Shown: positions 38,321 through 52,445 of the stretch, in pieces | How the letters are laid out: every line of letters starts with the position of its first letter | How positions within the stretch are numbered: the first letter of the stretch is position 1 | From: Candidatus Woesearchaeota archaeon UBA489 | GTDB lineage: Archaea; Nanobdellota; Nanobdellia; SCGC-AAA011-G17; UBA489 | DNA: 54,525 nt | Reading direction: 5' to 3' | Assembly: GCA_002505585.1 (NCBI GenBank) | Contig: DAVM01000020.1 | Location: forward strand, 1 to 54,525 | Program-made: the position numbers and the translations under genes | The notes under the pieces: model-generated | What the model saw: the letters and a program-made list of their open reading frames with translations, nothing else | What the model was told of the DNA's origin: nothing | The model's database searches: none

Positions 38321-39415
38321 ATGACAAAAGAAAAGAATAAAGCTATTGAATTGATTCGTGATCAAGCTAATAATATTTATCAAAAAATCTTGAAGAGAAA
38401 AAAGCCTGAGATGAAGTTTCCTTTACGTTCTTTGAATAATGTTAAGTATGATACTAAGAAAGGGTTTTTTGAATTAATTGGAAAACATAAAGTTCGTGCA
38501 TTAACTGTGAATACTGTTAAAGGCTTCGCGCAGACTTTACGTATGATGACTTTATCTAAGCAATTAGTTGGTGCTAATGATATTGCTACTAAAAGAGAGG
38601 CTTATTATGTTTCCAAAAATTGGGGTGATGCTCGTTTTAGCGAACAAGTAGAGTCTGATACTGTTTTAGACGATATTGAAGCTATGTTTATGTTAAACCG
38701 TGAGCAACTTGGTTTTATTCCTGAAGAAAAAGGTGGAGATATTGCTGGTGAATTAATTGTTGTTGATAAAGATCCTAATACTGGAAAAGAAATCAAGATT
38801 GATTGTACTAAGTTTGGTTCTGGTGCTTATTCTATTCCAACTTCTGTTGAACAATTAAAGTTTGAAACTAAGGCTAAGTTTATTTTGGCTATTGAAACTG
38901 CTGGTATGTTTCAGCGTTTAGTTAAGCATGGGTATTACAAAAAAACAAATTGTATTTTAATTTCTATGGGTGGTGTTCCAACACGAGCTTGTAGAAGATT
39001 TATTAGAAGATTGTCTGATTCTAAAAAATTACCTGTCTACGCTTTTGTTGACGGTGACTTTTATGGTTGGATGAATATTTATCGTACTTTGAAAGTTGGT
39101 AGTGGTAATGCTGCTCACATTAATGAATATTTTTGTGTTCCTAAAGCTAAATTATTTGGTATTACTGCTGAAGATATTACTAAATATAAATTACCTACTC
39201 ATCCTTTGAAAGATGTTGATATTAAGCGTGGCAAGGATGCTTTGAAAAATGATCCTTTTGTACATCAACATCCTGAATGGCAAAAAGCTATTCAAGATAT
39301 GATCAAGTTAGGGAAAAGAGCAGAGCAGCAAGCGCTTGCAGCTTGGGGTCTAAATTATGTTATGGAAAAATATTTACCTGATAAGTTAAAGAATTCTAAA
39401 AGTTGGTTACCTTAA
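38321..39415 (+). CDS. top6A: DNA topoisomerase VI subunit A
   Basis: TKREAYY catalytic Tyr, AIETAGMF, DGDFYG, KRAEQQA. Confidence 0.96.
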   Translation: MTKEKNKAIELIRDQANNIYQKILKRKKPEMKFPLRSLNNVKYDTKKGFFELIGKHKVRALTVNTVKGFAQTLRMMTLSKQLVGANDIATKREAYYVSKNWGDARFSEQVESDTVLDDIEAMFMLNREQLGFIPEEKGGDIAGELIVVDKDPNTGKEIKIDCTKFGSGAYSIPTSVEQLKFETKAKFILAIETAGMFQRLVKHGYYKKTNCILISMGGVPTRACRRFIRRLSDSKKLPVYAFVDGDFYGWMNIYRTLKVGSGNAAHINEYFCVPKAKLFGITAEDITKYKLPTHPLKDVDIKRGKDALKNDPFVHQHPEWQKAIQDMIKLGKRAEQQALAAWGLNYVMEKYLPDKLKNSKSWLP

Positions 39416-40215
39416 TAGAAGCTATAAGGATCTAATTGGCCACAAATAATTTTCTCTCTTTGCTCTAGAGTCGTTTTAGGAGGACAGAAGCCGAATTCTT
39501 CCCATATAGCTAATTTTGTTAAGTGTTTTGGGTTTTTAGAACCAATCAGTTCCATCCATGTTTTAAGATTTTTCTTTCCAGATAGTGCCACACTACTCCC
39601 TACATATTCTTTTTTAGTTTTTTTATTGTACACTTTATCGTTGTAACGATCATGATAGGAAAAATTGAAATTCTTAAGGATGTTTACTAGGTCTCTTATA
39701 AAATAAGGGTTTCTAAAACTTATTCTAATAACAGGATATTTGTGAAGTTTGCTTTTGTCTTTAGCTTTAAATGTAATTGTACCATCTGTATCTAAGATTC
39801 CTCTTAAAAAGTTAGTTTTTAATTTTTTAGCAGCTGAAAGAATAAATAAAGGAAATCCTTTTGCATAATTTTTATTTCCTATTGGCAGATCACTCTCTTT
39901 CAAAAAATGAAAGATTGCTTTAGAATAAATGCAGAGTCTTACTTCATTCTTCTTTAAAAATAATGTTTTGAACTTAACAGAAAATAATCTTTCAAAAATG
40001 CTCTGAATGTGTATTTGATAATAGCAGAAATCCTCTTTTTTATGTCCAGATAGAACCATTCTATATGTTGTGCTTTTTGGTCTTTTGCAATAATTGATGT
40101 TTCCATCCCCTATCATTGCACCTACAAACTCTGCTAATAAATAATTTTCTTTAGAAGGGATAGTCACACTTTTTTTGAGATCTTTTCTACTAAAATTCTT
40201 ATTTTTTAAACTCAT
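39412..40215 (-). mobile_element. Free-standing double-motif LAGLIDADG endonuclease
   Basis: LAEFVGAMIGDG and FLRGILDTDG; no intein termini; TATA-like element at 40237-40244. Confidence 0.85.
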
Positions 40216-40371: not shown

Positions 40372-40446
40372 GCCACCGTAGCACAACGGTTGTGCACCGC
40401 TCTTGTAAAGCGGAGGTTGTGGGTTCAAATCCCTCCGGTGGCTCCA
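40372..40446 (+). tRNA. tRNA-Thr(UGU), CCA encoded
   Basis: GCCACCG/CGGTGGC acceptor, GCAC/GTGC D stem, CCGCT-CT-TGT-AA-AGCGG anticodon arm, TTCAAAT T loop, U73. Confidence 0.93.
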
Positions 40447-40458
40447 TTTTTATCTTTC

Positions 40459-40559
40459 GGGCCCGTGGTCTAGAGTTCTTGTAGTCTACAAGGATGGACA
40501 ATAGCTATGACGCTTCCTTGACTTGGAAGAAATCGCAGGTGCAATTCCTGCCGGGCCCA
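40459..40559 (+). tRNA. tRNA-Val(GAC) with about 26-28 extra nt in the D loop
   Basis: GGGCCCG/CGGGCCC acceptor, GTC/GAC D stem, CTTCC-TT-GAC-TT-GGAAG, GCAGG-TGCAATT-CCTGC, A73; total 101 nt. Confidence 0.8.
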
Positions 40560-40696
40560 TTTTTTTGAGTTTTTTTCAAAACATTTATATACTCTTCCTT
40601 CTCAAATAAATTAAGGTTTTAAAGCCTTTATAGGGAATAAAAGAGGCTGAAAATAGCTTTAAAGAGAAAAAAGAGGTTTTTAAGGGTTTATTTCAT

Positions 40697-40891
40697 ATGA
40701 TTCCTTCGGAAAAAGAGCTTGTTGAGTTTATTAGGAAAAGGGATTTGGTTAACTTTAGTTTAATCGCTAAATTCTTCGATATAAAGAACGCTACTGTTTC
40801 TGATTTAGTTCTTCCTTTGCAAAAGAAGAAGCTTATTGAGATTAAGAAATTGGGGGGCTCAAAGGTTGTTCGTTTGAGGAAGAAAAAATGA
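40697..40891 (+). CDS. Small winged-helix protein
   Basis: NFSLIAKFFDIKNATVSDLVLPLQKKKLIEIKKLGGSKVVRL; stop overlaps the next start (ATGA). Confidence 0.7.
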   Translation: MIPSEKELVEFIRKRDLVNFSLIAKFFDIKNATVSDLVLPLQKKKLIEIKKLGGSKVVRLRKKK

Positions 40892-42861
40892 GGCGTGGTC
40901 AAGTTGCTGCTTTTACAATTTTAGGATTAGTTGTTGTTGCTATTTTTTCCACTGTGTATGTTTTTCGTGAAGAAATTTTTGGTGCTACTTTTGGTAGAGA
41001 AACTTCTCAAGCTTTGGCTGTTCCTCCTCAGGCTGAAAAACTTAGAGTTTTTGTTGATTCTTGTATTGGAGAAGTTGCTGAGGAAGCTTTAAGCACTTTA
41101 AGTTTGCAAGGTGGATACATTAATCTTCCTAGTGCTGATGTTCCTGCTTCACCTGTATACCCTTTCTCTAATAATTTTGATTTGTTTGGTGATAGTGGTA
41201 ATGAAGTTCCTTTTTGGTTTTTTGAGGATGCTTATGGTGTGCAACAAACACAAGTGCCTTCCTTGAGGGATATGGAAAAAGAAATTGAATCTTACATAGA
41301 TGGATTTTTATCTGTATGTATTAATGATTTTGTAACTTTTAAACAACAAGGCTATAGTATTTCCTTTACTCCTCCTAAAGCTGCTGTTACTATTGGTGAA
41401 AAGAATGTTTTGTTTTCTGTTGATTTTCCTATTGATTTTGTTGTTCGTGACTTTGATTTTAGTTTTGATACTTTTAATAAGAGAGTTAGTAGTCCTTTGC
41501 ATGAATTGCATGCTGTTGCTAAGGAAATTTTAGTTTTCGAGAATGAGAATTATTTTATTGAGGATCGTGTTTTGGAGATGATGGTTGTATATGACAACAT
41601 CCCTTTTTCTGGTGTTGATTTTGAGTGTTCTCCTAAGTCTTGGACTAAGACTGATGTATATAATGATTTAAAAAATATTATGGCTAGTAATCTTCCTGCT
41701 ATTAGGATTAAAGGTACTACTTTCACTAAGGGTGTTTCTGCTAAGTCTTTTGTTATTGATGCTTTGAAGAAGAAGCATACTTTAACTTCTTTGTTTGCTT
41801 ACAATCCTTCTTGGCCTTTGTTGATGGAGGTTGTTGGTGAGGATGGTGAGATTTTGCGTGGTGATCCTTTTACTTCTGAGAATGAGGCTAGTCAATTTTT
41901 ATTGCCTTTGTTTTGTTTGAATGATTATCATTTCGTCTACAATTTGAAGTTTCCTGTGGTTATTGCTTTAGAGAAAGAGAATACTGTTTTCCAGTTTGCT
42001 ACTTTGGCTATTGTTCAAAATAATCAGCCTAGAGAGAATAGGGCTAATATTGGTTTGTTTGATGTTGAAACTCCTATTTGTGATTATCCTAGTAAGAAAT
42101 TGAAGGTTGTTGCTGAGGGATATAGGCCTAATAGTGTTGTAAGTTCTTTAGCTGGTGCTAGTATTTCTATGAAGTGTTTGAATCAAGTTTGTAATATAGG
42201 TACTACTCAACTAGAAGGTTCTACTTTTTCTTTAACTAAGCCTGTTCCTTCGTGTTTTAATGGTTTAATGATTGCTGAAAAAGAGGGTTTTCATAGGGCT
42301 GAAAAGCTTGTGTCTACTAATCAAAATCTTGAAGAAGTTGTTGTAACTCTTGAGCCTTTGCATGAAGTTGTTATTGATGTATTAGTTGATGATGAGGGTT
42401 CTTTGCGTGAGCCTTATGCTTCTGAACAAGTATTGTTTACTTTTACTAATAAGGAACAGAAGTATGCTACTAGTGTGATATATCCTTCTCAAAAAAATGT
42501 TAAGTTGGTTGCTGGTTCTTATGAAGTTTCTTCGTCTATAACTATTGAGAGTTCTCAAGGATTTAAATTAAAGAAAAAGGATATTGAGGTTTGTAATGAT
42601 GTTCCTAAAAAGGGTGTTCTTGGTCTTGCTGGTTTGACTAAGAAAGAGTGTACTACTCATACTATTGATGCTACTACTATTAATCAGATTCCTGTTGGGG
42701 GTAGTTCTGTTGATTGGTTTGTGAATAGAGAATCTTTATTAGCTGCAACTGAAGTAACTTTATATGCTTTAAGAGGTCCTACTCCTCAGTCTATTGATGA
42801 GATTACTAAAGTGTATGAGGTTATGCGTGAAAAAGAGGTGAGACGTCCTATACTTAAATAA
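40888..42861 (+). CDS. Large protein with class III (pilin/archaellin-type) signal peptide
   Basis: MRRG|QVAAFTILGLVVVAIFSTVYVF; 657 aa, scattered Cys, beta-rich C-terminal half. Confidence 0.75.
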   Translation: MRRGQVAAFTILGLVVVAIFSTVYVFREEIFGATFGRETSQALAVPPQAEKLRVFVDSCIGEVAEEALSTLSLQGGYINLPSADVPASPVYPFSNNFDLFGDSGNEVPFWFFEDAYGVQQTQVPSLRDMEKEIESYIDGFLSVCINDFVTFKQQGYSISFTPPKAAVTIGEKNVLFSVDFPIDFVVRDFDFSFDTFNKRVSSPLHELHAVAKEILVFENENYFIEDRVLEMMVVYDNIPFSGVDFECSPKSWTKTDVYNDLKNIMASNLPAIRIKGTTFTKGVSAKSFVIDALKKKHTLTSLFAYNPSWPLLMEVVGEDGEILRGDPFTSENEASQFLLPLFCLNDYHFVYNLKFPVVIALEKENTVFQFATLAIVQNNQPRENRANIGLFDVETPICDYPSKKLKVVAEGYRPNSVVSSLAGASISMKCLNQVCNIGTTQLEGSTFSLTKPVPSCFNGLMIAEKEGFHRAEKLVSTNQNLEEVVVTLEPLHEVVIDVLVDDEGSLREPYASEQVLFTFTNKEQKYATSVIYPSQKNVKLVAGSYEVSSSITIESSQGFKLKKKDIEVCNDVPKKGVLGLAGLTKKECTTHTIDATTINQIPVGGSSVDWFVNRESLLAATEVTLYALRGPTPQSIDEITKVYEVMREKEVRRPILK

Positions 42862-42862
42862 A

Positions 42863-45800
42863 ATGAGGCAAGTTTTTGGAAAAAGAGAGAGAGCTGTATT
42901 CATTATTCTACTTATGTTCTTTTTACCTATGCAACAAGTTGTTGCTCAGCGTTCTTCTGAGTTTGAAAATTTAAAAGAGCGAACTAAAAACATTCCTCAG
43001 GATTTTAGGGATCAGGCTGAAGTTATTGGTGGACAATTAAATGACCGTTTTGATTCTGGTGTCCCTGGTGAGCTTGGTACTATTGGTGAGGATATTATTT
43101 TGCAAGTGAAGGAATATCAGCCTAAGATTATTCGTTCTTCTTTGTTGGAAGATCAGGGTGTGTTCGTGTATGCTTTATTAAGTGGTCAACCTACTAATCC
43201 TACTATTAGTATTCCTAATATTAAGAATGTTGTTATTCGGAGACAGAAGGTTACTACAAATCCTGTTGGTGCTCCTGTTTCTATTGGTCGTGTTCGTCAC
43301 ATTAAGCCTTCTCGTGCTGAGTTGAGTTTTGATAATATGGGGTATATGGTTATTCCTATTCGCCAGATTCCTAGGGAGAATGATGTTCCTGATGAGGTGC
43401 TTGTTGATGTTGATGCACGTATCTTTTTTGATGTTTCTGAGGGGTTAACTTTTGGTCCTACTAAGGATATTTTGGTTGAACAAAATAAGGATCAGTGGGC
43501 TTTAACTAAGGAGGATCATAGTTTTTATGCTGGGTTTATTCGTGTGTCTGAAATTTCTGATATTGGTGCTACTGTTGCTTTGTATGATAATAATGTGAAT
43601 GAAGTTCGTGGTTCTCCTATAGAATTAAAGGTTGGTCAAACTTCTCGTTCTTTGAGTGCTAGGTCTGAGTTTGGGTATTCTCGTACTGGGAAGATTTTTG
43701 ATAGATTTAATTTGAAGCTTGATCGTATTACTGCTTTGAGTGATAAGGCTCGTTTGATTATTTCTCGTGATGGTAAGGTTGAGACTAGGACTTTGTCTGA
43801 GGGTGAATTTTTGTATCCTGGTTCTAGTTGGTTTATTGAAAATATTATCACTGATGTTCGTGGTGAGGAGTTTACTGTTAAGTTGCGTAATCGTAATAGT
43901 TTTGGTGCATTTGGTGGTTCTGCTTCTAAGAAGTTGGCTTGTACTGATTTTTGTGAATTAAAGGCTAAGAAGTTAAAGATTAATGCTTCTTTGCCTCCTG
44001 TTCCTGCTAAAAAGCCTAAGACTGCTGTTCCTCAAGATAAAAGTCTTGTTGCTTATAAAAATATTAAAGAGAAGGAGTATGATAAGGTTGTTATTGATTT
44101 AGGTAAGGGGTTTAAGGATTATTCTAGTGTTGTAAAAAATTTGGAAAAGTTAAGAAAAGCTACTAGTCCTCTGACTTCTTTAGCTACTAAGAATTTGATT
44201 GATAATTTGTTGAAAACCATTCAGAGAGAGTATAATGCTAAACGTGTTGAAAGACAGTTGGCTATTAATCGTGATAATCATTCTATCATTACTAAAGATG
44301 TTGAAGTTATGTATGAATATATGCTTAAATTAAACCAAAAACTTGCTGGAGATAAAACTCGTTTGCCTTCTGCTCAAAAAACTGATGCTTCTGCTACTGG
44401 TTTGATTGCTTATCAGCAGGCTAGAGAAGAGTACCAAAAAGTTATTGATGGATTTACTTCTTCTAAAGATCTTGAAATTAGGAAGCATGTTGCTAAAGCT
44501 CATTGGCGTATTGCTAATTTGCCTGGTGATATTGTTAGTAAAGATTCTAGAATTCAGCATTTAGATGTTTTGCTTAATAATTTTGAAGTTATTGAGTATG
44601 ATGGGTTTACTAAACAAAATTTGGAAATCTTGTTGAAGATTTTAAAGTCTTTGCAACTTGATTACCAAAGTGTTAGTCAAGAGCTTTCTGAGCCTTCTAC
44701 TGGGGAAATTTTTTCTGTTTTGTTGGCTGGTGCTGAAAAGGCTTCTGCTAAGTTGAAGTCTCGTGCTACTTTAACTTTGGATGGTGCTAGGACTAATACT
44801 TATATTGAAGGCGAACCTCTCTTGTGGCCTGAGACTGGTTCTCCTGGTTCTATTAGGTGGAATGTTAAAGAGATTAATACAAGGAGTGTTATTATTGCTC
44901 GTGCTGATAGTGGAGAAACTATTAGAATTAATTTAAATGCTGAGGTTGATAAAGTTCCTATTTTGCCTGGTGCTGGTAATGTTCGTAAAGTTAAGTTGAT
45001 TGATACTGATGTAAAAAAAGAGGCTCATGTTACTATTAGTCCTGTTGTTGAGAGTGCTTATTCTGAGGCTATTTTTAGTTTGCATCTTCCTATTGAAAAG
45101 CGTGCTTTTGATTTGCCTCTTTTTTCTGATACTGTTGAGGAAGAGATTGTTAAGACTGAGGATTTATTGGAAGATTTGAATGAAATTGTAGAGAATGTTC
45201 GTGAGATTACTGAGTATTGGCAAAAGATTTGTTTGGTTACTTTTGGTGTGTTGTGGGCTAAAAACTTTTTAGCTGGTGCTTTTGGTAAAGGTAATGCTGC
45301 TGATGCTAGACAAAAGGTTGGTTCTATGTATAAAGAAAAGTATGCTCATTGTCAGACTCTTGATCGTTCTGATCCTGAGAGTTGTGCTGGTAAGACTTAT
45401 GAGCAGTTTGTTTTCAGTAAGCAAGCAGAGTATGAAACTGCTATTGAGCAATCTTCTAAGATTACTGAAGGTATTCAGAACTTAGAAAGTAGTGGGTATT
45501 ATACTAAACAAGAAAATTTTCCTGAATTAGGTAAAGAGTATAATGGTGCTAAGGCTGAGTTGTATTATTATGAAGAGATGAGTAAATTGCATCCTAATGA
45601 TGAGACTACTAAGACTAAGGTTTTGACTTTGAGGTCGCAGTTAAAGCATTCTGATTTAGAACGGCAGTTTTCTGATGTGTATTTTGAGGATGGTCGGTTA
45701 AAGACTTTTGATGAGTTAGGGTCTAATGCTAAAGGTATTGTAGGAGCTACTATAAATTACCCTGGATTAAAGCCTGCTCGTGATGAGTTGATTAGTAAGT

Positions 45801-48800
45801 TGTCTGATGCTGAAAAGGTAAAAATTGCTGAAGCTACTAAGAATGGTATTTTTGAACAACATGTTTGGAATACTCATGGTAAAAAATTAATTCCTTATTA
45901 CAAGGAATCTATTGTGAAACAACAGCTTGGTACTTATATTACTACTGATTTGAAAAAACAATATAGTGTTGAACAAAAGCATCTTGATAATTTATTTGAA
46001 GCTCATCGTATTAAAAATGTTGATAGTGCTTTGGTTGGTAATTTCAAGCATGCTCCTAGTTTGTCTTTTGCTACTAAGGGTAAGGGGAAAGATAATGTTG
46101 AGTTTGTTTCTATTGATGCTTTGCATTATGTGCAAGTTTCTTATCGTACTGGTGGTCGTGTTGAAAAGTATGAATTGTTCCGTCGTTCTTCTCCTAATAG
46201 TCAGATGGGTCATAGGAGTGATGTATATTTAGGTGTTGTTGATGAACAATTGTTAACTAATTATCGGAAGTCTGGCACTGATGATCATAAGTCTCTTTCC
46301 AAAAATTTGGATAATGTTCGTAGTTGTATTAGTCGTATTAATAAACAGAATAGTAAGACTAAATATTCTAGGTCTGATAAAGTGCAGACTAAACCTATTG
46401 GTTGTTCTGGTTTGGGTAATTATGTTGTTAAGAATTCTGTGCAAGGTTCTGATAGGAGTTGTACTGATTTCATGAGTCCTTCTGATTGTAAATTGTTATT
46501 CAATGCTTGTGATCCTGTTATTTGTCCTACTTCTCGTTGTAATCTTGGCGGTGATTGGCCTGTTGAGAATGTTGCTGAGACTGGTATTATTGGTAGTGCT
46601 TTGCTTTGTTTGCCTAACTTTATTGGTGTTGATAAGGATGCTGGGGTAGTTATGCCTGTTTGTTTAACTGGTATTCATGCTGGATTACAAAATATTCGTT
46701 CTATTATTGAAGGCTACCGTCAGTGTTTGATTACTGCTAAGGTTTCTGGTCGTTCTGTTGGTATTTGTGATCGTATACGTTCTTTTGGTATTTGTGAAGT
46801 GTTGTGGAAGGAGGGTATGGCTCTTGTGAGTGCTAAGGAAGGTATTTTAGGTAAGTTGATTGGTGCTTTAAGTGATGATGATGGCAGTGGTGCTTCTGGT
46901 GGTGGTGAATATTCTGCTTTCCAAGATACTTTGGATAATAGTGCTGAGAGTTTGAAGTTCTTTACTCAGTCTTATGCTAAGAATACTTTTGCTCGTTACT
47001 CTGGTGGTTCTCTTCCAGAAATTGGTACTGAGATTTGTAAGGCTGCTATTTTTAGGAAGGCTCCTGGTGTTGGTAATTTCTTTGATGAAGTTACTCGTCC
47101 TGAAAGTCCTCCTCAGTTTAATGCTTTCTTTGATGAAGTTCCTTATTCTGATATTGGTGAGCGTTCTTTGAGTCAGTATAAAATCTTTTATCATGTGTAT
47201 GCTGGTGAGACTAGTGGTGTTTCTCCTGTGACTTATAGTGTTTGGTTGCAGTCTAAGGATCCTTATACTAATGAGTTTATTTATCCTCCTCAGTTTTTGC
47301 GTGATTCTCGTGGTATTGTTCGTGGTCGTCGTTTGCCTTCTGGTGGTTTTGCTAGTGAGGCTCCTGATATGATTTTACCTACTGGTATGCAAGAAATTTG
47401 TGTTGAGATTGTTACTGACACTTATGGTCGTCGTGTTGAGTGTGGTTTTGGTAAGGTTTCTACTGGTTTTGCTTTGAATTATGTTACTGATAAATTTACT
47501 CAGGGTGAATTAAATAAAAAGATTAATAGTGCTAGTGAATGTGTTTCTAAATCTTCTACTATTGCTGATGCTGTTTCTGAGCGTGGTTTAGTTGCTGGTG
47601 TTGGTGTTGGTGTTGTTGGTACTGTTTCTAGTGGTTTTACTTCTACTGGTATTGTTAGAAAGTGTTCTAAGGTTTCTCCTGGTATTGGCGGTGATGAGGC
47701 TAAGTGGAGTCCTGTTGGTAGTTGTGGTATTGATGATCTTGATCGTGATATGGGTACTTGTTGGTTGTATGTCCCTACTGCTCAAAATTTGATTAAACAA
47801 GTTAGTGCTCGTACGCAATTCCAAAACACTTTGAATGAAACTGCTCGTCGTGTTATTGCAGAGGCTGAAAAGGCTGGTAGTCCTATTCCTGGTTTTGAGG
47901 TGTTAGAGAAAAAAGAGATTCAGACTTTGTTTGATCTTGCTAAGACTGCTCGTGAGGATGCTATTAAAACTAATGATGTTGCTAAGTTTGTTCCTGCTAG
48001 GAAGAATTATAACAAAATTAGAAGTGCTTATGCTGTTGATGAAAAGTTTGGTGCTAATGCTCAGTTCTTTTTGGCTGAGACTTATTGGGAGGAAGCTCGT
48101 ATTTTAATTGCTACTAATAGTTTGGTTAATGCTGCTGCTGCAACTATTAAGTCTATGCGTGGTGTTAGAAGAATTACTTTACCTCATCCTCCTGTGCCTA
48201 TGGCAAAGAATTCGATGGTTGAAATTGAAATTTTTGGTACTGTGCATAAGTTTGAAGTTAAGAGCATGAGTGGTGGGAAGATTACTTTAGAAGTGCGTTC
48301 TACTCCTCAAGAGTTCTTGTTGAAACAAAAAGATAAAGCTATTGAGGTTGATGTGAATGGGGATAGAAAGCCTGATATTACTATACAGTATGTTAAAGAT
48401 AAAGCTTTGAATGCTCCTGGACTTGGTGAGGTTGTTGCTGGCATGGTTTGGTTTAAAGAAATAAAAGCAAGTACTCCTGCTCCTAAAGTTCCTAAAGTTC
48501 CAAAGGATCCTAAAGACCCAAAAGATCCTACACCTAGTACTTCTGGAAAAAAGTGTACTTCTAATGGTTTTTGGGCTGATAGTGCAGGCAAACGTTTACC
48601 TACAAAATCTGGTTCTAGTCCTGAAGTTGCTACTGGCACTCCTGTTGCTATTGTAGTGAATGCAATTAATTGTAATGGGAAAACTTTGAAGGTTGGTATT
48701 GAAGAGAACGATGATTATTTTGATGAATCAGTTAGTGGTTTTCCTAAAGAGATAAAGATTGATGCTGATGGTACTGTAACAAAATTGGTTCCTTGGACTA

Positions 48801-51085
48801 CTGAATATTTGGATGATGGTTGGTTTGGTGGTAATCCTGAATTTATTTTTAGGATTTTTTATGGTGAGGAAGAGTTATTTAAGTTACTTGATAGGTATGA
48901 ATTAGTTGTTACAAAGAATAAATATACTGGACCTCTTGCTCCTTCAATAAAACCAGTTATTAAAAGTATTACTCCTTCTATTTTGTTGGATGGTGAGCCT
49001 GCTGTTGTAGAGATAGTTGGAGAGAATTTTGACAAAAATGTTCAAGTGTTTTATCCTACGGTTTCTAAACCAGATCTTATGCATTTGAGAAAAGATAGAG
49101 AAGTAATTTGGGTGTCTGATAAATTATTAAAAGTTGATTTAACAAAGAGTCTTCCTCTTCCTGGCTGGCATTTTAGTTTACTTGTAAGAAATCCTGATAA
49201 ACAGGTGAGTAATCTAGAACCTGTTACTGTATTGCCTAAAGGGATTTTGTTTGTTGTTATGAAGGAGGATGCAAGTACTCCTTCTGGTTTTGAGGCGGAC
49301 ATTCGTGTGGTTAATCCTGATACTGGAAGAAATTATCGTATTCAGACAGCAAAATCTTCTTCTTGGGTTAATTGGGTTGATGATCTTGTTGAACATAATG
49401 GTAGAATTTATGGAGCTATGAGGCCGAACGTTATTCCTGGGACTGTTTCAGAAATTTTTGATATGTTTAGTGATGATCGTGCTGCTAGGCGTGATAGTTC
49501 AACATTTGCTTTAGTGTCTCATGATGGTGAGTTATATGATGCTGGTTTGTATGGTTTTAAGGAAACGTTTGGGAGTGGTTCTATTAGTGGCATGGAGGTT
49601 TATGATATGGTTTCCAATGATGGTAAGTTTTATGCTGCTACAACTACTGGTATTTTTGCAAAGAGTGGTGTTCCTACTAGTGGTAATCTTAAATATCTAT
49701 ATTATATGGTATCTGGTGAAGTGCATACTTTAACAGCGCATAAGGATAAAATTTACTATAGTGAAGGATTTGATATTTTTGTAGATGATGAGCCTATTCC
49801 TCTAAAGAGTAGGGCTGATGAATTAATTGCTTTAGTGTCTTATAATGGTAAATTGTATGATGTAAGTGATAAAATAAGGAACACTGAAACTGATCAGGTT
49901 GTTTTTGATCCTGTTGGTAAGGAAATTTCTGCTGCTTTGTCTTTAGAGAAGCTTTCAAAAGTTGTAGCTCCTTTACCTTCTCCAACCCCTCCAACTCCCG
50001 CTCCTATAACACCATCTCCTAGTGCTACTAAAGAACATGCTTGGGCTTGGTATTATAATGCTAAAAAGTATGAAGTTAAGGTTGATATTCCTGCTGCTTT
50101 AACTGAACGATATTATAAATTAAAGCCACATCCTACTGGTGAGATTGGTGGTGATTACACACCTTATGTGTTGGATTCAGATGATGATGTTGTTATTCGT
50201 GGTATTGCTAGACAAATTTTGGAGATTGCTAACGCTGAAAACATGGATGATTGGCAAAAGTTCTTTTTAGTTTCTTCTTTTGTTAAAGGAAACTTTGCGT
50301 ACCAATTAGATGCTGTTTCCGCTATGTGTTCTGAATATCCTCGTTATCCTTTGGAAATGATTTTGAGTGCTCGTGATAATAAGTTAGGTATTGGTGATTG
50401 TGAGGATGCTGCTATTTTAACTGCTGCTTTGTTGAAAGAATTAGGCTATGATATTTCTATGGTAGTTTTAGGCCCTGTAAAACCTGGTGATGGTGCTCAT
50501 GCTTCTCTTGCTGTGAAGTGTGATGCTCCTTTCCCTCCTGCACATTTTAAGGTTCCTCCTCTTGCTTGGGATTTTGCTGGAAAAAAGTATTGTTATTATG
50601 AAGCGGTTGTTTATTCAAATACTTGTTTAACTGAGTACAAATCTCGTTTCCCTAGTTTGACTGATCTTGGAGCTTATGCTGCTCCTTGTCAATTGAAAAT
50701 TGGGGAGATTTTTGCTGATTTTGCTCGTGAGCTTGATTTAACTAATCCTGAATTAGCACGATTAGTAAGCCCGAAAGCATATCTAAAATCTATTTCAGCC
50801 AATCTTAAATCTGACGGTACTTTTGAGCTTACAATAAAAAACACTGGCTCTGTGATTGCTAAAAATGTTTGGATAAACAAGATCTTTGGAGTAGATGCAA
50901 CTGGTACTCCTACCACTACTCCTCGGAATTCTGCTAAGGTTGATATTCCTGCTGGAGAAGAAAGAAAGCTTGTTATTGGTTTTTCTTCTGCTGAAATTGA
51001 TGTGTTGAAGGCTGCTACCAAAACACGTGTTTTTATTGATGCTGATAATGCGAAAATGTTTCTAGCAGGCTTTAATTTTACTTAA
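42863..51085 (+). CDS. Giant (2740 aa) secreted modular protein: Cys-rich core, IPT/TIG-like domain, beta-propeller-like repeats, transglutaminase-like domain
   Basis: Signal peptide; Cys cluster near 46320-46800; PVIKSITP..VEIVGENF; five LVxHxGxLY-type repeats; YPRYPLE...GDCEDAAILTAALL...HASLAV...YYE. Confidence 0.8.
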   Translation: MRQVFGKRERAVFIILLMFFLPMQQVVAQRSSEFENLKERTKNIPQDFRDQAEVIGGQLNDRFDSGVPGELGTIGEDIILQVKEYQPKIIRSSLLEDQGVFVYALLSGQPTNPTISIPNIKNVVIRRQKVTTNPVGAPVSIGRVRHIKPSRAELSFDNMGYMVIPIRQIPRENDVPDEVLVDVDARIFFDVSEGLTFGPTKDILVEQNKDQWALTKEDHSFYAGFIRVSEISDIGATVALYDNNVNEVRGSPIELKVGQTSRSLSARSEFGYSRTGKIFDRFNLKLDRITALSDKARLIISRDGKVETRTLSEGEFLYPGSSWFIENIITDVRGEEFTVKLRNRNSFGAFGGSASKKLACTDFCELKAKKLKINASLPPVPAKKPKTAVPQDKSLVAYKNIKEKEYDKVVIDLGKGFKDYSSVVKNLEKLRKATSPLTSLATKNLIDNLLKTIQREYNAKRVERQLAINRDNHSIITKDVEVMYEYMLKLNQKLAGDKTRLPSAQKTDASATGLIAYQQAREEYQKVIDGFTSSKDLEIRKHVAKAHWRIANLPGDIVSKDSRIQHLDVLLNNFEVIEYDGFTKQNLEILLKILKSLQLDYQSVSQELSEPSTGEIFSVLLAGAEKASAKLKSRATLTLDGARTNTYIEGEPLLWPETGSPGSIRWNVKEINTRSVIIARADSGETIRINLNAEVDKVPILPGAGNVRKVKLIDTDVKKEAHVTISPVVESAYSEAIFSLHLPIEKRAFDLPLFSDTVEEEIVKTEDLLEDLNEIVENVREITEYWQKICLVTFGVLWAKNFLAGAFGKGNAADARQKVGSMYKEKYAHCQTLDRSDPESCAGKTYEQFVFSKQAEYETAIEQSSKITEGIQNLESSGYYTKQENFPELGKEYNGAKAELYYYEEMSKLHPNDETTKTKVLTLRSQLKHSDLERQFSDVYFEDGRLKTFDELGSNAKGIVGATINYPGLKPARDELISKLSDAEKVKIAEATKNGIFEQHVWNTHGKKLIPYYKESIVKQQLGTYITTDLKKQYSVEQKHLDNLFEAHRIKNVDSALVGNFKHAPSLSFATKGKGKDNVEFVSIDALHYVQVSYRTGGRVEKYELFRRSSPNSQMGHRSDVYLGVVDEQLLTNYRKSGTDDHKSLSKNLDNVRSCISRINKQNSKTKYSRSDKVQTKPIGCSGLGNYVVKNSVQGSDRSCTDFMSPSDCKLLFNACDPVICPTSRCNLGGDWPVENVAETGIIGSALLCLPNFIGVDKDAGVVMPVCLTGIHAGLQNIRSIIEGYRQCLITAKVSGRSVGICDRIRSFGICEVLWKEGMALVSAKEGILGKLIGALSDDDGSGASGGGEYSAFQDTLDNSAESLKFFTQSYAKNTFARYSGGSLPEIGTEICKAAIFRKAPGVGNFFDEVTRPESPPQFNAFFDEVPYSDIGERSLSQYKIFYHVYAGETSGVSPVTYSVWLQSKDPYTNEFIYPPQFLRDSRGIVRGRRLPSGGFASEAPDMILPTGMQEICVEIVTDTYGRRVECGFGKVSTGFALNYVTDKFTQGELNKKINSASECVSKSSTIADAVSERGLVAGVGVGVVGTVSSGFTSTGIVRKCSKVSPGIGGDEAKWSPVGSCGIDDLDRDMGTCWLYVPTAQNLIKQVSARTQFQNTLNETARRVIAEAEKAGSPIPGFEVLEKKEIQTLFDLAKTAREDAIKTNDVAKFVPARKNYNKIRSAYAVDEKFGANAQFFLAETYWEEARILIATNSLVNAAAATIKSMRGVRRITLPHPPVPMAKNSMVEIEIFGTVHKFEVKSMSGGKITLEVRSTPQEFLLKQKDKAIEVDVNGDRKPDITIQYVKDKALNAPGLGEVVAGMVWFKEIKASTPAPKVPKVPKDPKDPKDPTPSTSGKKCTSNGFWADSAGKRLPTKSGSSPEVATGTPVAIVVNAINCNGKTLKVGIEENDDYFDESVSGFPKEIKIDADGTVTKLVPWTTEYLDDGWFGGNPEFIFRIFYGEEELFKLLDRYELVVTKNKYTGPLAPSIKPVIKSITPSILLDGEPAVVEIVGENFDKNVQVFYPTVSKPDLMHLRKDREVIWVSDKLLKVDLTKSLPLPGWHFSLLVRNPDKQVSNLEPVTVLPKGILFVVMKEDASTPSGFEADIRVVNPDTGRNYRIQTAKSSSWVNWVDDLVEHNGRIYGAMRPNVIPGTVSEIFDMFSDDRAARRDSSTFALVSHDGELYDAGLYGFKETFGSGSISGMEVYDMVSNDGKFYAATTTGIFAKSGVPTSGNLKYLYYMVSGEVHTLTAHKDKIYYSEGFDIFVDDEPIPLKSRADELIALVSYNGKLYDVSDKIRNTETDQVVFDPVGKEISAALSLEKLSKVVAPLPSPTPPTPAPITPSPSATKEHAWAWYYNAKKYEVKVDIPAALTERYYKLKPHPTGEIGGDYTPYVLDSDDDVVIRGIARQILEIANAENMDDWQKFFLVSSFVKGNFAYQLDAVSAMCSEYPRYPLEMILSARDNKLGIGDCEDAAILTAALLKELGYDISMVVLGPVKPGDGAHASLAVKCDAPFPPAHFKVPPLAWDFAGKKYCYYEAVVYSNTCLTEYKSRFPSLTDLGAYAAPCQLKIGEIFADFARELDLTNPELARLVSPKAYLKSISANLKSDGTFELTIKNTGSVIAKNVWINKIFGVDATGTPTTTPRNSAKVDIPAGEERKLVIGFSSAEIDVLKAATKTRVFIDADNAKMFLAGFNFT
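48482..48529 (+). repeat. 9-bp tandem repeat encoding PKV-PKV-PKD-PKD-PKD-P linker
   Basis: cctaaagtt cctaaagtt ccaaaggat cctaaagac ccaaaagat cct. Confidence 0.85.
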
Positions 51086-51089
51086 AAAA

Positions 51090-51887
51090 ATGTTGTTCAA
51101 AAAGTCTTTCTTAATTTTGAAGAAGAAGTTTGCTTCTTTGTTTTTGTTAGAGCTTGCTTTTGTTTTTTCTTTGTTATTTTTTTTAGTTTTTGTTAAAGAT
51201 AAGATTAGTGGATATTTAGCTCTTATTCGTGGATTAACTCCTCAGTTGGCTGTTTTGCAGAAGGCTGCTGAAACTAATATTGCTGATGCTACTGCTTTGG
51301 TTGCTTTGTCTGATTTTCAGTCTGTTACTTCTGGTGCTTTGAATTTTGCTTATGTTGTTGTTCCTTTAGTGTTGTTTGTTCTTTGGTGTGTTTTTCAGTC
51401 TTCTTTGTGGTTTTGTTTAAAGAATGAGTCTTTGAAGTCTTTTGGTTCTTTTTTTAAAAAATTTGTTGTTGTTTCTTTAATCCTTTTTGGTCTTTTGTAT
51501 GTTGTTCTTAAGTCTATTCTTAAAGATGTTTTGAGTTCTGGTGCTTTGGACACTTCTTTTGCTCAGATTGTTTTGTTGAGTTTTGTTTTCTTTTATTTTT
51601 CTCTTGTTGCTTTTGCTTGTTTAAGTAAAGATCCTTTAAAGAAGTTTTTCAAAAGATTTTTGTTTATTTCTTTTAAAAGAGTTTTTTCTGTTCTTTTACC
51701 TATTTTCTTATTTTTTAGTTTAGTCTTTGTTGGTTTCGTCTTTTTGTTCGGCCCTCTATTTTTGCAATTTTGGGTTGGTGGTGAAGATCGTGTGATGGTT
51801 GGATTAGTGTTGTATTTGGTTGTTTTAATTGTTGTTTCTCTTTATTTGAAAATCTTCATTAATTTGAAGGTTGCAGAATTAAAATAA
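51090..51887 (+). CDS. Multi-pass membrane protein of unknown function
   Basis: About six Phe/Leu/Val-rich hydrophobic segments; starts 4 nt after the giant ORF. Confidence 0.75.
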   Translation: MLFKKSFLILKKKFASLFLLELAFVFSLLFFLVFVKDKISGYLALIRGLTPQLAVLQKAAETNIADATALVALSDFQSVTSGALNFAYVVVPLVLFVLWCVFQSSLWFCLKNESLKSFGSFFKKFVVVSLILFGLLYVVLKSILKDVLSSGALDTSFAQIVLLSFVFFYFSLVAFACLSKDPLKKFFKRFLFISFKRVFSVLLPIFLFFSLVFVGFVFLFGPLFLQFWVGGEDRVMVGLVLYLVVLIVVSLYLKIFINLKVAELK

Positions 51888-51888
51888 C

Positions 51889-51972
51889 TGCGGGAACTAG
51901 GACTCGAACCTAGGTAAGCACTAAGCTACTGGGTCCTAAACCCAGCCCGTTTGACCACTCCGGCATTCCCGC
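51889..51972 (-). tRNA. tRNA-Leu(UAG)
   Basis: Reverse complement GCGGGAA...CTGGG-TT-TAG-GA-CCCAG, long variable arm, TTCGAGT T loop, TTCCCGC-A; 84 nt. Confidence 0.95.
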
Positions 51973-52109: not shown

Positions 52110-52442
52110 ATGAATAGCAAATATAAAGCAAGATTTGAAGGTTATACAGCAAGTATTAATTGGCCTGATCCAACTAAACCTAATCCAAATAGTGAAGCAG
52201 CAGATGTTACATTATCTACTCTAGATGGTAGAAAACTAACAGCAAATTTTGTTACTAAGCCTTTCCTTGATTATGTGTTTAGTAAAAATAGTAGAACAGG
52301 AGAATGTGCTTCTGGAACATATTTTTGTATGAAAGATGGTATGATTGTTGTTGAAAAAATTACTGAAAGGACAGTGAAAGCAACTATTGATGATTTAATA
52401 AATAATTATGAAGTTGACTTTCATTTTAAAGAAATTAAATAA
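52110..52442 (+). CDS. Putative polymorphic-toxin immunity protein
   Basis: 110 aa; ADVTLSTLDGRKLTANFVT...TGECASGTYFCMKDGMIVV...IDDLI resembles, from recall, small proteins encoded beside bacterial RHS/LXG toxins; abuts the toxin gene. Confidence 0.6.
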   Translation: MNSKYKARFEGYTASINWPDPTKPNPNSEAADVTLSTLDGRKLTANFVTKPFLDYVFSKNSRTGECASGTYFCMKDGMIVVEKITERTVKATIDDLINNYEVDFHFKEIK

Positions 52443-52445
52443 CTA

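What the first reader, a model, noticed from the sequence alone, without database searches (positions are those of the whole stretch)
40697..51887. Four-gene 11-kb surface-apparatus operon between inward-pointing tRNA genes
Seen: wHTH (ATGA overlap), 657-aa class-III-signal protein, 1-nt gap, 2740-aa secreted protein, 4-nt gap, multi-pass membrane protein. The block is flanked by tRNA-Thr/Val and tRNA-Leu, whose 3' ends face it. Class III peptides are processed by prepilin peptidases, but pilins are usually far smaller than 657 aa. Codon skew is host-like, so it looks long resident. Inference: a regulated, uncharacterised adhesion or delivery structure.
Basis: partly seen in the sequence, partly recalled or inferred. 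Interest (0 to 1): 0.65.

Follow-up and report, generated by a model that had tools for sequence, protein, structure and literature searches.

The report
Conserved DPANN giant surface-protein operon
This four-gene block is a real, anciently conserved operon of Woesearchaeota-type archaea: a pilin-signal stalk protein, a giant secreted protein with a swappable enzyme tip (bacterial cell-wall cutters in many relatives), a membrane protein and a small DNA-binding regulator, so it is probably how these tiny archaea grip or open other cells.

Summary

The block is not an island. P657 lies directly upstream of the giant in 60 of 61 related loci. The membrane protein follows in 44 of 61, and the wHTH is found in 24 of 60. 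The tRNA-Val and tRNA-Leu flanks are themselves conserved. There is no att duplication, and codon usage is host-like.

P657 has a strictly conserved class-III motif ([KR][GAS]|Q, with F or Y at +5) and a predicted Ig-like stalk. The genome encodes a prepilin peptidase.

The giant has a Sec signal and three conserved blocks, including an orphan Cys-rich core. After about aa 1750 its tail is unrelated even in the closest relatives. In relatives that tail ends in SLT, amidase, M23, M15/VanY, GDSL or DPBB/3D domains. Here it ends in a transglutaminase-like domain. Close relatives lack murein synthesis genes.

The giant family is already noted in the literature (fam00969, Castelle 2021). I found no description of the operon and its partners in the searched papers.

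The best reading is a membrane- or pilus-anchored cell-contact and wall-breaching apparatus, autoregulated by the wHTH. The function is inferred, not shown.

The parts
40372..40446 (+). tRNA-Thr(TGT), upstream flank
   Evidence: ARAGORN and Rfam. A tRNA-Thr(TGT) next to tRNA-Val recurs upstream of the operon in several distant loci.
40459..40561 (+). tRNA-Val(GAC) with an insertion of about 28 nt in the D loop (about 40471-40498)
   Evidence: Missed by ARAGORN and Rfam. Aligns to orthologous tRNA-Val(GAC) genes except for the insertion. Folds as a cloverleaf plus an extra hairpin, z -3.5. tRNA-Val lies within 1.5 kb upstream in 28 of 57 related loci.
40584..40595 (+). TATA-box-like TTTATATACTCT, about 105 nt before the wHTH start
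   Evidence: The motif occurs 5 times in the window against 0.97 expected. TTTATATA is present upstream in 16 of 23 wHTH+ and 14 of 36 wHTH- loci. Its promoter role is inferred.
40613..40689 (+). Candidate wHTH operator region: perfect palindrome AAGGTTTTAAAGCCTT (40613-40628) and two AGAGGYT...GCTTTAAAG/TTTAAGGG repeats (40639-40689)
   Evidence: This is the only exact palindrome match in the window. AGAGG[CT]T occurs upstream in 13 of 23 wHTH+ loci against 0 of 36 wHTH- loci, with a background of 0.03 per 160 nt. Binding has not been tested.
40697..40891 (+). 64-aa winged-helix protein (wHTH)
   Evidence: Weak Pfam and NCBIfam winged-helix hits. Profile against PDB: MarR E 0.003, CdvB winged helix E 0.011. 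Mean identity among orthologues is 62%. Fused in frame to P657 in 4 genomes and to a NucS_C domain in 3 (NucS_C Pfam-tested in one of them, L042, E 2.5e-15).
40888..42861 (+). P657: class-III-signal N-terminus (aa 1-26, 40888-40965), orphan alpha/beta N-domain (aa about 47-380, 41026-42027), tandem beta-sandwich stalk (aa about 400-630, 42085-42777)
   Evidence: No Pfam, NCBIfam, PHROG or PDB sequence hit. AF2 pLDDT 80.5. Foldseek finds only Ig/CnaB-like pilus adhesins and phage fibre proteins at low TM-score. The motif is conserved in 59 of 59 orthologues. About 10 invariant Cys.
42863..48109 (+). Giant protein, conserved body: Sec signal (aa 1-29, 42863-42949), block A (aa 60-340, 43040-43882), block B (aa 660-850, 44840-45412), Cys-rich core block C (aa 1200-1640, 46460-47782)
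   Evidence: Conservation map over 65 orthologues. Core family of 1093 clusters at 50% identity, 936 of them at E<=1e-30. No Pfam or PDB hit. AF2 pLDDT 73.8, low in the helical Cys-rich part, with no fold match. The block B hydrophobic segment is not a transmembrane helix (median KD 1.23).
48110..51085 (+). Giant protein, variable tail (aa 1750-2740): PKV/PKD and Pro/Thr linkers, further modules, and a transglutaminase-like domain (aa 2468-2554, 50264-50524; candidate catalytic C2513 and H2546)
   Evidence: Covered by 0-1 of 65 orthologues. The closest relatives are 52-58% identical up to about aa 1749-1843 (aa 1749 in three of the four full-length alignments) and unrelated after that, apart from one module. 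DUF553 scores 22.8 bits against a cut-off of 20.5 on the 361-aa fragment, with weak Transglut_core and Peptidase_C93 hits. Residues located.
51090..51887 (+). 265-aa polytopic membrane protein (about 6 transmembrane helices)
   Evidence: Hydropathy. Found downstream of the giant in 44 of 61 loci. No Pfam or PDB family, and no invariant polar residue; only P92 is above 90% conserved.
51889..51972 (-). tRNA-Leu(TAG), downstream flank, 1 nt after the operon
   Evidence: ARAGORN and Rfam. tRNA-Leu lies within 1.5 kb downstream in 15 of 50 related loci, 14 of them convergent.

Best explanation
The four genes form one vertically inherited operon encoding a cell-surface apparatus typical of Woese-/Pacearchaeota.

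Shown:
- The gene order is conserved, and all products except the wHTH carry export or membrane signals.
- The giant's body is conserved while its C-terminal tail is replaced between even close relatives.
- In many relatives the tail ends in bacterial peptidoglycan hydrolases.

Inferred mechanism:
- P657 enters the membrane through its class-III-type N-terminal helix. It is probably cut after Gly4 by the genome's prepilin peptidase, and it projects an Ig-like stalk.
- P657 holds the Sec-exported, anchorless giant protein at the cell surface, either from the membrane or at the end of a type-IV-pilus-like fibre built by ATPases encoded elsewhere in the genome.
- The 6-TM protein would serve as a membrane platform, and some lineages do without it.
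- The giant's conserved blocks form a scaffold, and its exchangeable tip engages the envelope of another cell. In this genome the tip is a transglutaminase-like, papain-fold domain; in relatives it is SLT, amidase, M23, M15, GDSL or DPBB. The tip would serve attachment, wall breaching or feeding.
- The 64-aa wHTH would bind repeated AGAGGYT/TTTAAA elements between the TATA box and its own start codon and so autoregulate the operon.
For: Synteny:
- P657 and the giant are adjacent in 16 of 16 loci and in 60 of 61 loci.
- The membrane protein follows in 44 of 61 loci and the wHTH is found in 24 of 60.
- The P657 family is present in 286 of 301 high-quality genomes of the phylum sample. The strong giant core is present in 47 of 53 genomes of the order and in further families. 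Weak core hits lie next to long P657 homologues elsewhere in the class.
- Gene gaps are -4, 1 and 4 nt.

Export signals:
- The class-III motif is conserved in 59 of 59 orthologues.
- The genome encodes a prepilin peptidase and four T2SSE ATPases.
- The giant's orthologues carry Sec signals.

Stalk: AF2 and Foldseek.

Swappable tip:
- Precomputed Pfam hits on homologues are SLT, Amidase_2/3, VanY and NAGPA.
- Three of the four Pfam-scanned homologues carry them at the extreme C-terminus; the fourth has VanY at residues 1224-1365 of 1532.
- In the last 500 aa of 70 orthologues: SLT 7, GDSL 3, Amidase_3 2, M23 2, 3D 2, DPBB 1, M15_4 1.
- The tail is unrelated after aa 1750, and here it carries a transglutaminase-like domain.

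No own murein: the Mur ligase domain is absent from 20 of 21 relatives.

Recurring pairs: paralogous pairs of an about 250-aa class-III N-domain protein and a large secreted protein recur in this genome and in three others.

Regulator: the motif co-occurs with the wHTH, the wHTH is fused to NucS_C in some lineages and it shows MarR-like similarity.

Literature: large extracellular SLT proteins of Pace-/Woesearchaeota have been proposed to bind or degrade bacterial walls (PMC8204110, PMC9723730).
Against: - There is no experimental or expression evidence.
- No physical interaction between P657, the giant and the membrane protein was tested.
- Most tips, including this one, have no strong enzyme assignment. 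Only about a quarter of 70 tails hit a muralytic family.
- The substrate of the transglutaminase-like domain is unknown.
- The conserved body matches no known fold, so its role as a scaffold is a guess.
- The partners of the P657 paralogues do not share blocks A, B or C, so no common docking domain is visible.
- The membrane protein is missing from 17 of 61 loci.
- The motif-wHTH association could partly reflect shared ancestry of the wHTH+ lineages.
- Near-universal conservation would also fit a housekeeping envelope role.
Confidence: 0.55

Rival explanations
1. Pilus-tip display. P657 is a minor-pilin-like subunit processed by the prepilin peptidase and built into the tip of a type-IV-pilus-like fibre assembled by one of the ATPase loci elsewhere in the genome. 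It would carry the giant protein as a tip adhesin or enzyme, as PilY1 sits on the minor pilins of bacterial type IVa pili. This differs from the main reading only in where the complex sits: on a fibre rather than on the membrane.
For: - The class-III motif is strictly conserved.
- The genome has a prepilin peptidase and four T2SSE ATPases next to pilin clusters.
- The P657 N-domain paralogues on contig C9 lie in one array with four small class-III proteins.
- Omnitrophota giant proteins are likewise preceded by T2SS/T4P-like loci and small class-III genes (bioRxiv 10.1101/2023.11.21.568195).
Against: - The operon has no ATPase, platform or small pilin gene of its own.
- Position +5 is always Phe or Tyr.
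- A 650-aa subunit with three Ig-like domains is far larger than known pilins.
- In four genomes a folded wHTH precedes the cleavage motif.
Confidence: 0.2
2. Tethered scavenging exoenzyme. The complex holds hydrolases at the cell surface to harvest amino sugars and peptides from free cell-wall debris. No specific cell-cell contact or host would be involved.
For: - The tips are hydrolases of wall polymers.
- These archaea have minimal biosynthesis, and wall-peptide carboxypeptidases are common in Pacearchaeota (PMC11537232).
- No adhesin-specific domain was identified in the conserved body.
Against: - A conserved non-enzymatic body of about 1700 aa plus a dedicated stalk and membrane protein is a large investment for a simple exoenzyme.
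- Most tails carry no recognisable enzyme.
- Rapid replacement of the tails looks more like partner-specific adaptation.
Confidence: 0.12
3. Own-envelope component. The giant, P657 and the membrane protein are structural or biogenesis parts of the archaeon's own cell envelope (an S-layer-like scaffold or its anchor). The variable tails would be surface decorations that change under phage or immune-like pressure.
For: - The pair is near-universal in the class: P657 family 286 of 301 genomes, strong core in 47 of 53 genomes of the order.
- It is a single-copy, syntenic, housekeeping-like locus between tRNA genes.
- The Cys-rich, probably disulfide-stabilised core is conserved.
Against: - The C-terminal domains are enzymes specific to bacterial murein, which these genomes cannot make (Mur ligase absent in 20 of 21).
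- The giant has no anchor or lattice-type repeat.
- 15 sampled genomes of the class, most of them among the smaller ones (0.5-1.2 Mb), lack even P657.
Confidence: 0.1
4. A mobile island, provirus remnant or secretion island that integrated between tRNA genes.
For: tRNA genes flank the block on both sides with their 3' ends inward. A LAGLIDADG-domain ORF lies just upstream.
Against: - The same tRNA-Val and tRNA-Leu flanks occur around the operon in many distant genomes: 28 of 57 and 15 of 50.
- The tRNA 3' ends are not duplicated, and the flanks share no repeat of 11 nt or more.
- There are no integrase, phage or PHROG hits.
- Codon usage is host-like.
- The operon is present in nearly every genome of the order.
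Confidence: 0.01

Closest known systems
[quoted passage not shown] 2021, PMC8204110; AR20 in Castelle 2015; Vigneron 2022, PMC9723730)
   Same: The window's giant is homologous over aa about 1-1750 to proteins annotated with SLT (PF01464), including the AR20 genome's copy (L062, CP010426.1). It shares the lineage restriction, the size range (1.6-3.7 kaa) and the predicted extracellular location.
   Different: This copy has no SLT domain. Its tip is transglutaminase-like. The passages of the cited papers that I read (term searches) describe the SLT domain, not the conserved Cys-rich body, the swappable-tail architecture, or the operon partners (class-III stalk protein, 6-TM protein, wHTH).
Bacterial type IVa pilus tip complex (minor pilins plus the PilY1 adhesin) and class-III-signal non-pilin surface proteins of archaea (from established knowledge)
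   Same: A prepilin-type signal protein is encoded next to, and presumably presents, a large Sec-exported adhesin-like protein. The peptidase and ATPases are encoded elsewhere in the genome.
   Different: No sequence or fold similarity to pilins, PilY1 or GspK. P657 is 657 aa with an Ig-like stalk. No pilin, ATPase or platform gene lies in the operon. Filament incorporation is untested.
Omnitrophota giant 'Archaeovorin' proteins with upstream T2SS/T4P-like loci (bioRxiv 10.1101/2023.11.21.568195)
   Same: In an ultra-small putative predator or symbiont, a giant secreted multidomain protein with occasional SLT-type wall-degrading domains is genomically linked to class-III-signal genes.
   Different: That is a bacterial system with proteins ten times larger and different domain content (glycosyltransferases and others), and no homology was detected. 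Here the system is a compact 3-4 gene operon.
Polymorphic-toxin or 'evolved' effector architecture (Rhs/CdiA/VgrG-type: conserved delivery body, variable C-terminal tip) and phage tape-measure or tail proteins with muralytic domains
   Same: A conserved N-terminal body with a sharp boundary, after which C-terminal modules are exchanged between close relatives. Muralytic domains sit at the tip.
   Different: No homology to any of these (PHROGs: none; PDB: none). No immunity gene follows the giant. No injection machinery was identified.

Membership tests
Archaeal class III (prepilin-type) signal peptide proteins | Short basic leader, [KR][GA] at -2/-1, then a hydrophobic stretch of about 20 aa | tested here: met
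   The window has MRRG|QVAAFTILGLVVVAIFSTVYVF. In 56 of the 59 orthologues a strict motif search scores -2 R/K 54, -1 G 44 / A 10 / S 2, +1 Q 55; the other three carry KRG followed by A or Q. The leader is mostly 3-8 aa.
Archaeal class III (prepilin-type) signal peptide proteins | A prepilin peptidase (Peptidase_A24: PibD/FlaK/EppA) encoded in the genome | tested here: met
   PF01478 hit at C14:3496-3843, 54.6 bits, above the cut-off.
Archaeal class III (prepilin-type) signal peptide proteins | Actual cleavage by the peptidase, and assembly into a filament | not testable with these tools
   This needs a biochemical assay or N-terminal proteomics. F/Y at +5 and the 657-aa size make filament polymerisation doubtful.
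[quoted passage not shown] | Homology to the Pace-/Woesearchaeota giant protein family; extracellular; up to about 3000 aa | tested here: met
   Core aa 1050-1760 finds more than 300 clusters, many carrying PF01464 and named 'transglycosylase SLT domain-containing protein'. It includes AR20. Sec signal present. I equate this family with fam00969 from the paper's description; the paper's family table was not read.
[quoted passage not shown] | Presence of an SLT / GH23 lytic transglycosylase domain | tested here: not met
   No SLT hit in the window's giant, whether whole or in six pieces, at E<=1. The tail is transglutaminase-like instead.
Transglutaminase-like / papain-fold cysteine peptidase superfamily (DUF553 PF04473, Transglut_core) | Profile match above the curated cut-off | tested here: met
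   DUF553 scores 22.8 bits against a cut-off of 20.5 on the C-terminal 361 aa. On the whole protein it scores 19.5, below the cut-off. Transglut_core and Peptidase_C93 match only weakly.
Transglutaminase-like / papain-fold cysteine peptidase superfamily (DUF553 PF04473, Transglut_core) | Catalytic Cys-His-Asp triad | tested here: inconclusive
   Candidates by inspection are C2513 (GDCEDAA), H2546 (GAHASL) and D2554 or D2570. They were not aligned residue by residue to a solved enzyme.
Type IV pilus / archaeal T4P-like locus | Assembly ATPase (T2SSE), platform protein and small pilins in the same locus | tested here: not met
   None among the four genes or their neighbours. T2SSE genes lie on other contigs.
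tRNA-integrated genomic island or provirus | Duplicated tRNA 3' end (att), integrase, patchy distribution, deviant composition | tested here: not met
   No duplicated tRNA end and no shared repeat of 11 nt or more. No integrase or PHROG hit. Conserved synteny including the tRNAs. Host-like codon usage.
Winged-helix transcription regulators (MarR/PadR-like) | Sequence match to a wHTH family; DNA binding | tested here: inconclusive
   Only sub-threshold matches: DUF6293_C 17.3 bits, MarR in PDB at E 0.003. A co-occurring upstream motif and NucS_C fusions point to DNA binding, which is untested.

The most novel reading that the evidence does not exclude
The P657-giant pair is the lineage-defining cell-contact machine of the whole class (Woese-, Pacearchaeota and relatives). 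In this reading a prepilin-processed stalk protein presents a giant scaffold with a new Cys-rich fold, and the scaffold's C-terminal 'warhead' is exchanged to match the wall of the current bacterial or archaeal partner. The small DNA-binding protein would be coupled to export. In the AR20 clade it is translated as the leader of P657 and would be freed into the cytoplasm by the prepilin peptidase, one regulator per exported stalk. That would be a previously unknown use of class-III signal cleavage.
Probability: 0.2. Interest if true: 0.85.

Novelty: new variant of a known kind. Interest (0 to 1): 0.6.

Why it matters
Woese- and Pacearchaeota are abundant, uncultivated and thought to depend on other cells, but their hosts and their means of contact are unknown. 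This operon takes up 1.4% of a 0.77-Mb genome. It is kept in the same place in nearly every genome of the order. In many relatives it carries enzymes that act only on bacterial murein, which these archaea do not make.

It therefore offers a concrete molecular handle on the question of whether these archaea live on bacteria:
- The tip domains can be expressed and tested on sacculi.
- Tip type can be correlated with co-occurring bacteria.
- P657 or the giant can be used as labelling targets in enrichments.

It also defines two large orphan domains (the P657 N-domain and the giant's Cys-rich core), and possibly a new way of coupling a regulator to prepilin processing.

Tried and rejected
Searches that found nothing informative:
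- Pfam, NCBIfam and PHROGs on all four proteins and on six pieces of the giant. The only hit was the transglutaminase-like tail.
- PDB profile searches with alignments of P657, the giant core, the wHTH and the membrane protein gave nothing significant.
- Foldseek of the P657 model against PDB and BFVD gave only generic tandem Ig-like hits with TM-scores below 0.2.
- Foldseek of the giant-core model gave nothing at E<=1e-3. The most conserved helical Cys-rich part was modelled poorly (pLDDT 30-60).
- The exhaustive HMM search of 1.84 billion representatives returned a closed family with no informative outliers among the best 150 listed.

Ideas tested and dropped:
- Island or att hypothesis: rejected.
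- A shared docking domain between the giant and the partners of the P657 paralogues: not found.
- The block B hydrophobic segment as a transmembrane or fusion helix: not supported. It is amphipathic, with a median KD of 1.23.
- The strict palindrome AAGGYTTTAAARCCTT as a general operator: found in only 3 of 58 loci plus the window. It was replaced by the half-site motifs.
- An RHH-like leader on P657 in L045: only 13.4 bits, below the cut-off. It remains a lead.
- Catalytic residues in the membrane protein: none conserved.


Full report
**1. Observation**

The four ORFs are exactly as described:
- wHTH, 40697-40891, 64 aa.
- P657, 40888-42861, 657 aa, starting inside the wHTH stop codon (ATGA).
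- Giant protein, 42863-51085, 2740 aa, after a 1-nt gap.
- Polytopic membrane protein, 51090-51887, 265 aa, after a 4-nt gap.

ARAGORN and Rfam find tRNA-Thr(TGT) at 40372-40446 (+) and tRNA-Leu(TAG) at 51889-51972 (-), the latter 1 nt after the last stop codon. It aligns base for base with tRNA-Val(GAC) genes at the same syntenic position in related genomes, except for about 28 extra nucleotides in the D loop. It folds as a cloverleaf plus a hairpin.

The rest of the window encodes TBP, MCM, RFC, topoisomerase VI and aminoacyl-tRNA synthetases. The host is therefore an archaeon. Its 0.77-Mb genome and the names attached to the homologues place it among Woesearchaeota-type DPANN archaea.

**2. 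A conserved operon, not an island**

- P657 has a full-length orthologue in nearly all of 41 relatives spanning 17 families of the order.
- In 16 regions fetched from different genomes, P657 and the giant are adjacent in all 16.
- A collection scan with the giant's core found relatives in at least 564 species genomes. All of the best 80 are labelled Woesearchaeota, Pacearchaeota, Nanoarchaeota/Nanoarchaeia or simply 'archaeon', and they include the complete AR20 genome.
- In those 80 loci P657 lies directly upstream of the giant in 60 of 61 evaluable cases. The membrane protein follows in 44 of 61. The wHTH is detected in 24 of 60.
- tRNA-Val lies within 1.5 kb upstream in 28 of 57 loci, and tRNA-Leu within 1.5 kb downstream in 15 of 50, 14 of them convergent as here. 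A given tRNA would fall in such a window by chance about twice in a thousand.
- No tRNA 3' end is duplicated, and the two flanks share no repeat of 11 nt or more.
- There are no integrase or phage-family hits, and codon usage is ordinary for this genome.

The inward-pointing tRNAs are therefore ancestral neighbours, not attachment sites.

In an even sample of 301 high-quality genomes of the phylum, the P657 family is present in 286. The strong form of the giant's core is present in 47 of 53 genomes of the order and in two further families. Weaker matches occur in proteins of about 1000-2600 aa (mostly about 1800-2000 aa) elsewhere in the class. Where I compared coordinates (G233, G114, G257, G049), these weak hits lie 4-5 kb downstream of a long P657 homologue on the same strand. 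The pair is therefore older than the order.

**3. P657**

P657 has no family in Pfam, NCBIfam, PHROGs or the PDB sequence set. All named homologues are 'hypothetical protein'.

Its N-terminus fits the archaeal class-III (prepilin) signal. A strict motif search scored 56 of 59 orthologues, and the other three carry KRG followed by A or Q. Among those 56, position -2 is R or K (54), -1 is G, A or S, +1 is Gln (55) and +5 is always Phe or Tyr. About 20 hydrophobic residues follow, and the leader is usually 3-8 residues. The genome encodes a Peptidase_A24 prepilin peptidase and four T2SSE ATPases, at least three of them beside clusters of small class-III proteins on other contigs.

An AlphaFold2 model (pLDDT 80.5) shows the N-terminal helix, an alpha/beta domain (aa about 47-380) and tandem beta-sandwiches (aa about 400-630). 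Foldseek finds only Ig/CnaB-like stalks of Gram-positive pilus adhesins and phage fibre or baseplate proteins, with TM-scores below 0.2. About ten cysteines are invariant.

The first 220 residues recur in proteins of about 250 aa, one to several per genome. In this genome all three such paralogues are immediately followed by a secreted protein of 593 to 1263 aa. Two sit in an array that ends with four small class-III proteins. The same pairing is seen in three other genomes. A class-III N-domain protein followed by a large Sec-exported protein is thus a recurring two-gene unit, which suggests that the first presents or anchors the second. No common domain was found in the partners.

**4. The giant protein**

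It starts with a Sec-type signal peptide, as its orthologues do. A coverage map over 65 full-length orthologues shows three conserved blocks: aa 60-340, 660-850 and 1200-1640. The last block holds 16 or more invariant cysteines and motifs such as CDPVxCPxSRCNLGG and ECGFGK. It matches no Pfam or PDB family. Its model has low confidence in the helical Cys-rich part and no fold match.

The family is closed and large: 1093 clusters at 50% identity, 936 of them at E<=1e-30. The hydrophobic segment in block B is amphipathic and not a membrane helix, so the mature protein has no anchor of its own.

After about aa 1750, conservation falls to 0-1 of 65 orthologues. Relatives that are 52-58% identical up to about aa 1749-1843 are unrelated beyond that point, apart from one internal module.

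In relatives the tail carries enzymes of bacterial cell-wall turnover:
- Precomputed Pfam hits on homologues are SLT, Amidase_2, Amidase_3, VanY and NAGPA.
- Three of the four homologues scanned carry them at the very C-terminus; the fourth has VanY at residues 1224-1365 of 1532.
- The last 500 residues of 70 orthologues give SLT 7, GDSL 3, Amidase_3 2, M23 2, 3D 2, DPBB 1 and M15_4 1.

Most tails, however, have no assignable domain. The window's tail ends in a transglutaminase-like (papain-fold) domain at aa 2468-2554. It passes the DUF553 cut-off only when the fragment is scored alone. Candidate catalytic residues are C2513 and H2546. Twenty of 21 relatives have no Mur-ligase domain, and the single hit in this genome is one isolated ORF. 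The muralytic tips therefore cannot be for remodelling the archaeon's own wall.

**5. The membrane protein and the wHTH**

The 265-aa protein has about six hydrophobic helices. It is poorly conserved (27% mean identity) and has no invariant polar residue and no family. It looks like a structural platform rather than an enzyme. In some lineages tRNA-Leu follows the giant directly, so it is dispensable there.

The wHTH is the best-conserved product, at 62% mean identity. Its similarity to MarR-type regulators and to the CdvB winged helix is weak.

Between a TATA-like box (40584-40591) and its start codon lie a perfect palindrome, AAGGTTTTAAAGCCTT (40613-40628, unique in the window), and two AGAGGYT...TTTAAAG repeats. 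AGAGG[CT]T occurs in the 160 nt upstream of 13 of 23 wHTH-containing loci but in 0 of 36 loci without a detectable wHTH. The background is 0.03 per 160 nt, and the TATA box is common to both groups. This fits autoregulation, with the caveat that the wHTH-containing lineages are related to one another.

In four species genomes, including the curated AR20 chromosome, the wHTH is fused in frame directly before the KKGQ motif of P657. In three others it carries an N-terminal extension; the one scanned (L042) matches the NucS_C nuclease-fold domain, and the other two have closely similar sequences. The P657 fusion implies either a membrane-tethered regulator or a 60-residue leader released by the prepilin peptidase. 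I could not distinguish between the two.

**6. Interpretation**

Shown:
- One tightly packed, vertically inherited gene set.
- Export signals on three products.
- A conserved body and an exchangeable tip on the giant.
- Murein hydrolases on many tips, in organisms without murein.

Inferred: P657 (with the 6-TM protein) holds the anchorless giant at the surface, and the tip engages the envelope of another cell. Whether the complex sits on the membrane or on a pilus-like fibre is open. So is whether it serves attachment, breaching or scavenging. An own-envelope role cannot be excluded, given how universal the pair is.

Co-transcription follows only from the -4, 1 and 4 nt spacings.

**7. Comparison with what is known**

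The giant belongs to the family that Castelle et al. [quoted passage not shown] Vigneron et al. 2022 used it to argue for a 'vampiristic' lifestyle (PMC9723730). A 2025 survey noted that peptidoglycan hydrolases are prominent in Nanoarchaeota (PMC12352652).

The passages I read in those papers do not mention the conserved non-enzymatic body, the tail replacement, the class-III partner, the membrane protein or the regulator. My literature searches found no description of the operon.

The nearest functional analogies are:
- Minor-pilin/PilY1 tip complexes.
- Omnitrophota giant proteins linked to T2SS-like loci.
- The body-plus-variable-tip logic of polymorphic toxins.

No homology to any of these was detected.

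Earlier agents of this scan reached similar readings on orthologous operons in other genomes. Those notes are not independent evidence.

**8. Verdict**

The feature is real and ordinary for its lineage, but it has not been studied experimentally. This copy is a new variant, with a transglutaminase-like tip, of a family known only at the level of one annotated domain. The operon-level picture is not in the literature I could search.

Points added here:
- The tRNA flanks are ancestral.
- The P657 family spans the whole class.
- The gene pair recurs as paralogous units.
- The wHTH is fused to P657 in some lineages, and a leader motif co-occurs with the wHTH gene.

Noticed in passing
window 40459-40561: tRNA-Val(GAC) carries an insertion of about 28 nt (about 40471-40498) in the D loop relative to orthologous tRNA-Val genes at the same syntenic site. 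ARAGORN and Rfam both miss the gene. It may be a non-canonical intron.
   Followed up: partly
window 14703-17276 (-): An 857-aa ORF with an intein (Intein_splicing plus LAGLIDADG_3) inserted in a P-loop ATPase. The ATPase gives weak HerA_C and Zot hits.
   Followed up: no
window 39412-40215 (-): A free-standing LAGLIDADG-domain ORF between topoisomerase VI subunit A and the tRNA genes, with six paralogues elsewhere in the genome.
   Followed up: no
G000 contig C9:837-14615 (locus L114): A minus-strand array of three secreted proteins of about 1000 aa sharing an N-terminal CCEKTxTG motif. They are interleaved with two 250-aa P657-N-domain paralogues and followed by four small class-III-signal proteins. 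No Pfam family apart from weak Big_13 hits.
   Followed up: partly
window 6784, 23074, 29891, 40237, 40584: TTTATATACTCT (up to 1 mismatch) occurs 5 times against 0.97 expected. It is probably a strong TATA/promoter consensus of this genome.
   Followed up: no
L059:4647-6767, L062:4134-6281 (AR20), L078:3753-5972, L086:3524-5641: The wHTH is fused in frame to the N-terminus of the P657 orthologue, immediately before the class-III cleavage motif. Two of the four have no internal Met before the motif.
   Followed up: partly
L042:3969-4514, L060:158-718, L074:4289-4936: The wHTH orthologue carries an N-terminal extension. In L042 it matches the NucS_C (PD-(D/E)xK-like) domain at E 2.5e-15; L060 and L074 have closely similar sequences but were not scanned.
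   Followed up: partly
L045:5260-5400: The P657 orthologue has a 40-aa N-terminal extension with a weak ribbon-helix-helix match (RHH_1, 13.4 bits, below the cut-off). It may be a second, independent fusion of a DNA-binding leader.
   Followed up: partly
window 52110-54525: Directly beyond tRNA-Leu lie a convergent 110-aa ORF and a 692+ aa ORF with no Pfam hit. An earlier finding of this scan reads them as a polymorphic toxin with a RelE-like tip plus an immunity gene. I did not examine them.
   Followed up: no
window 395-2173 (-): A BatA/VWA protein with DUF7406, DUF7407 and DUF7408 domains, another predicted surface protein.
   Followed up: no
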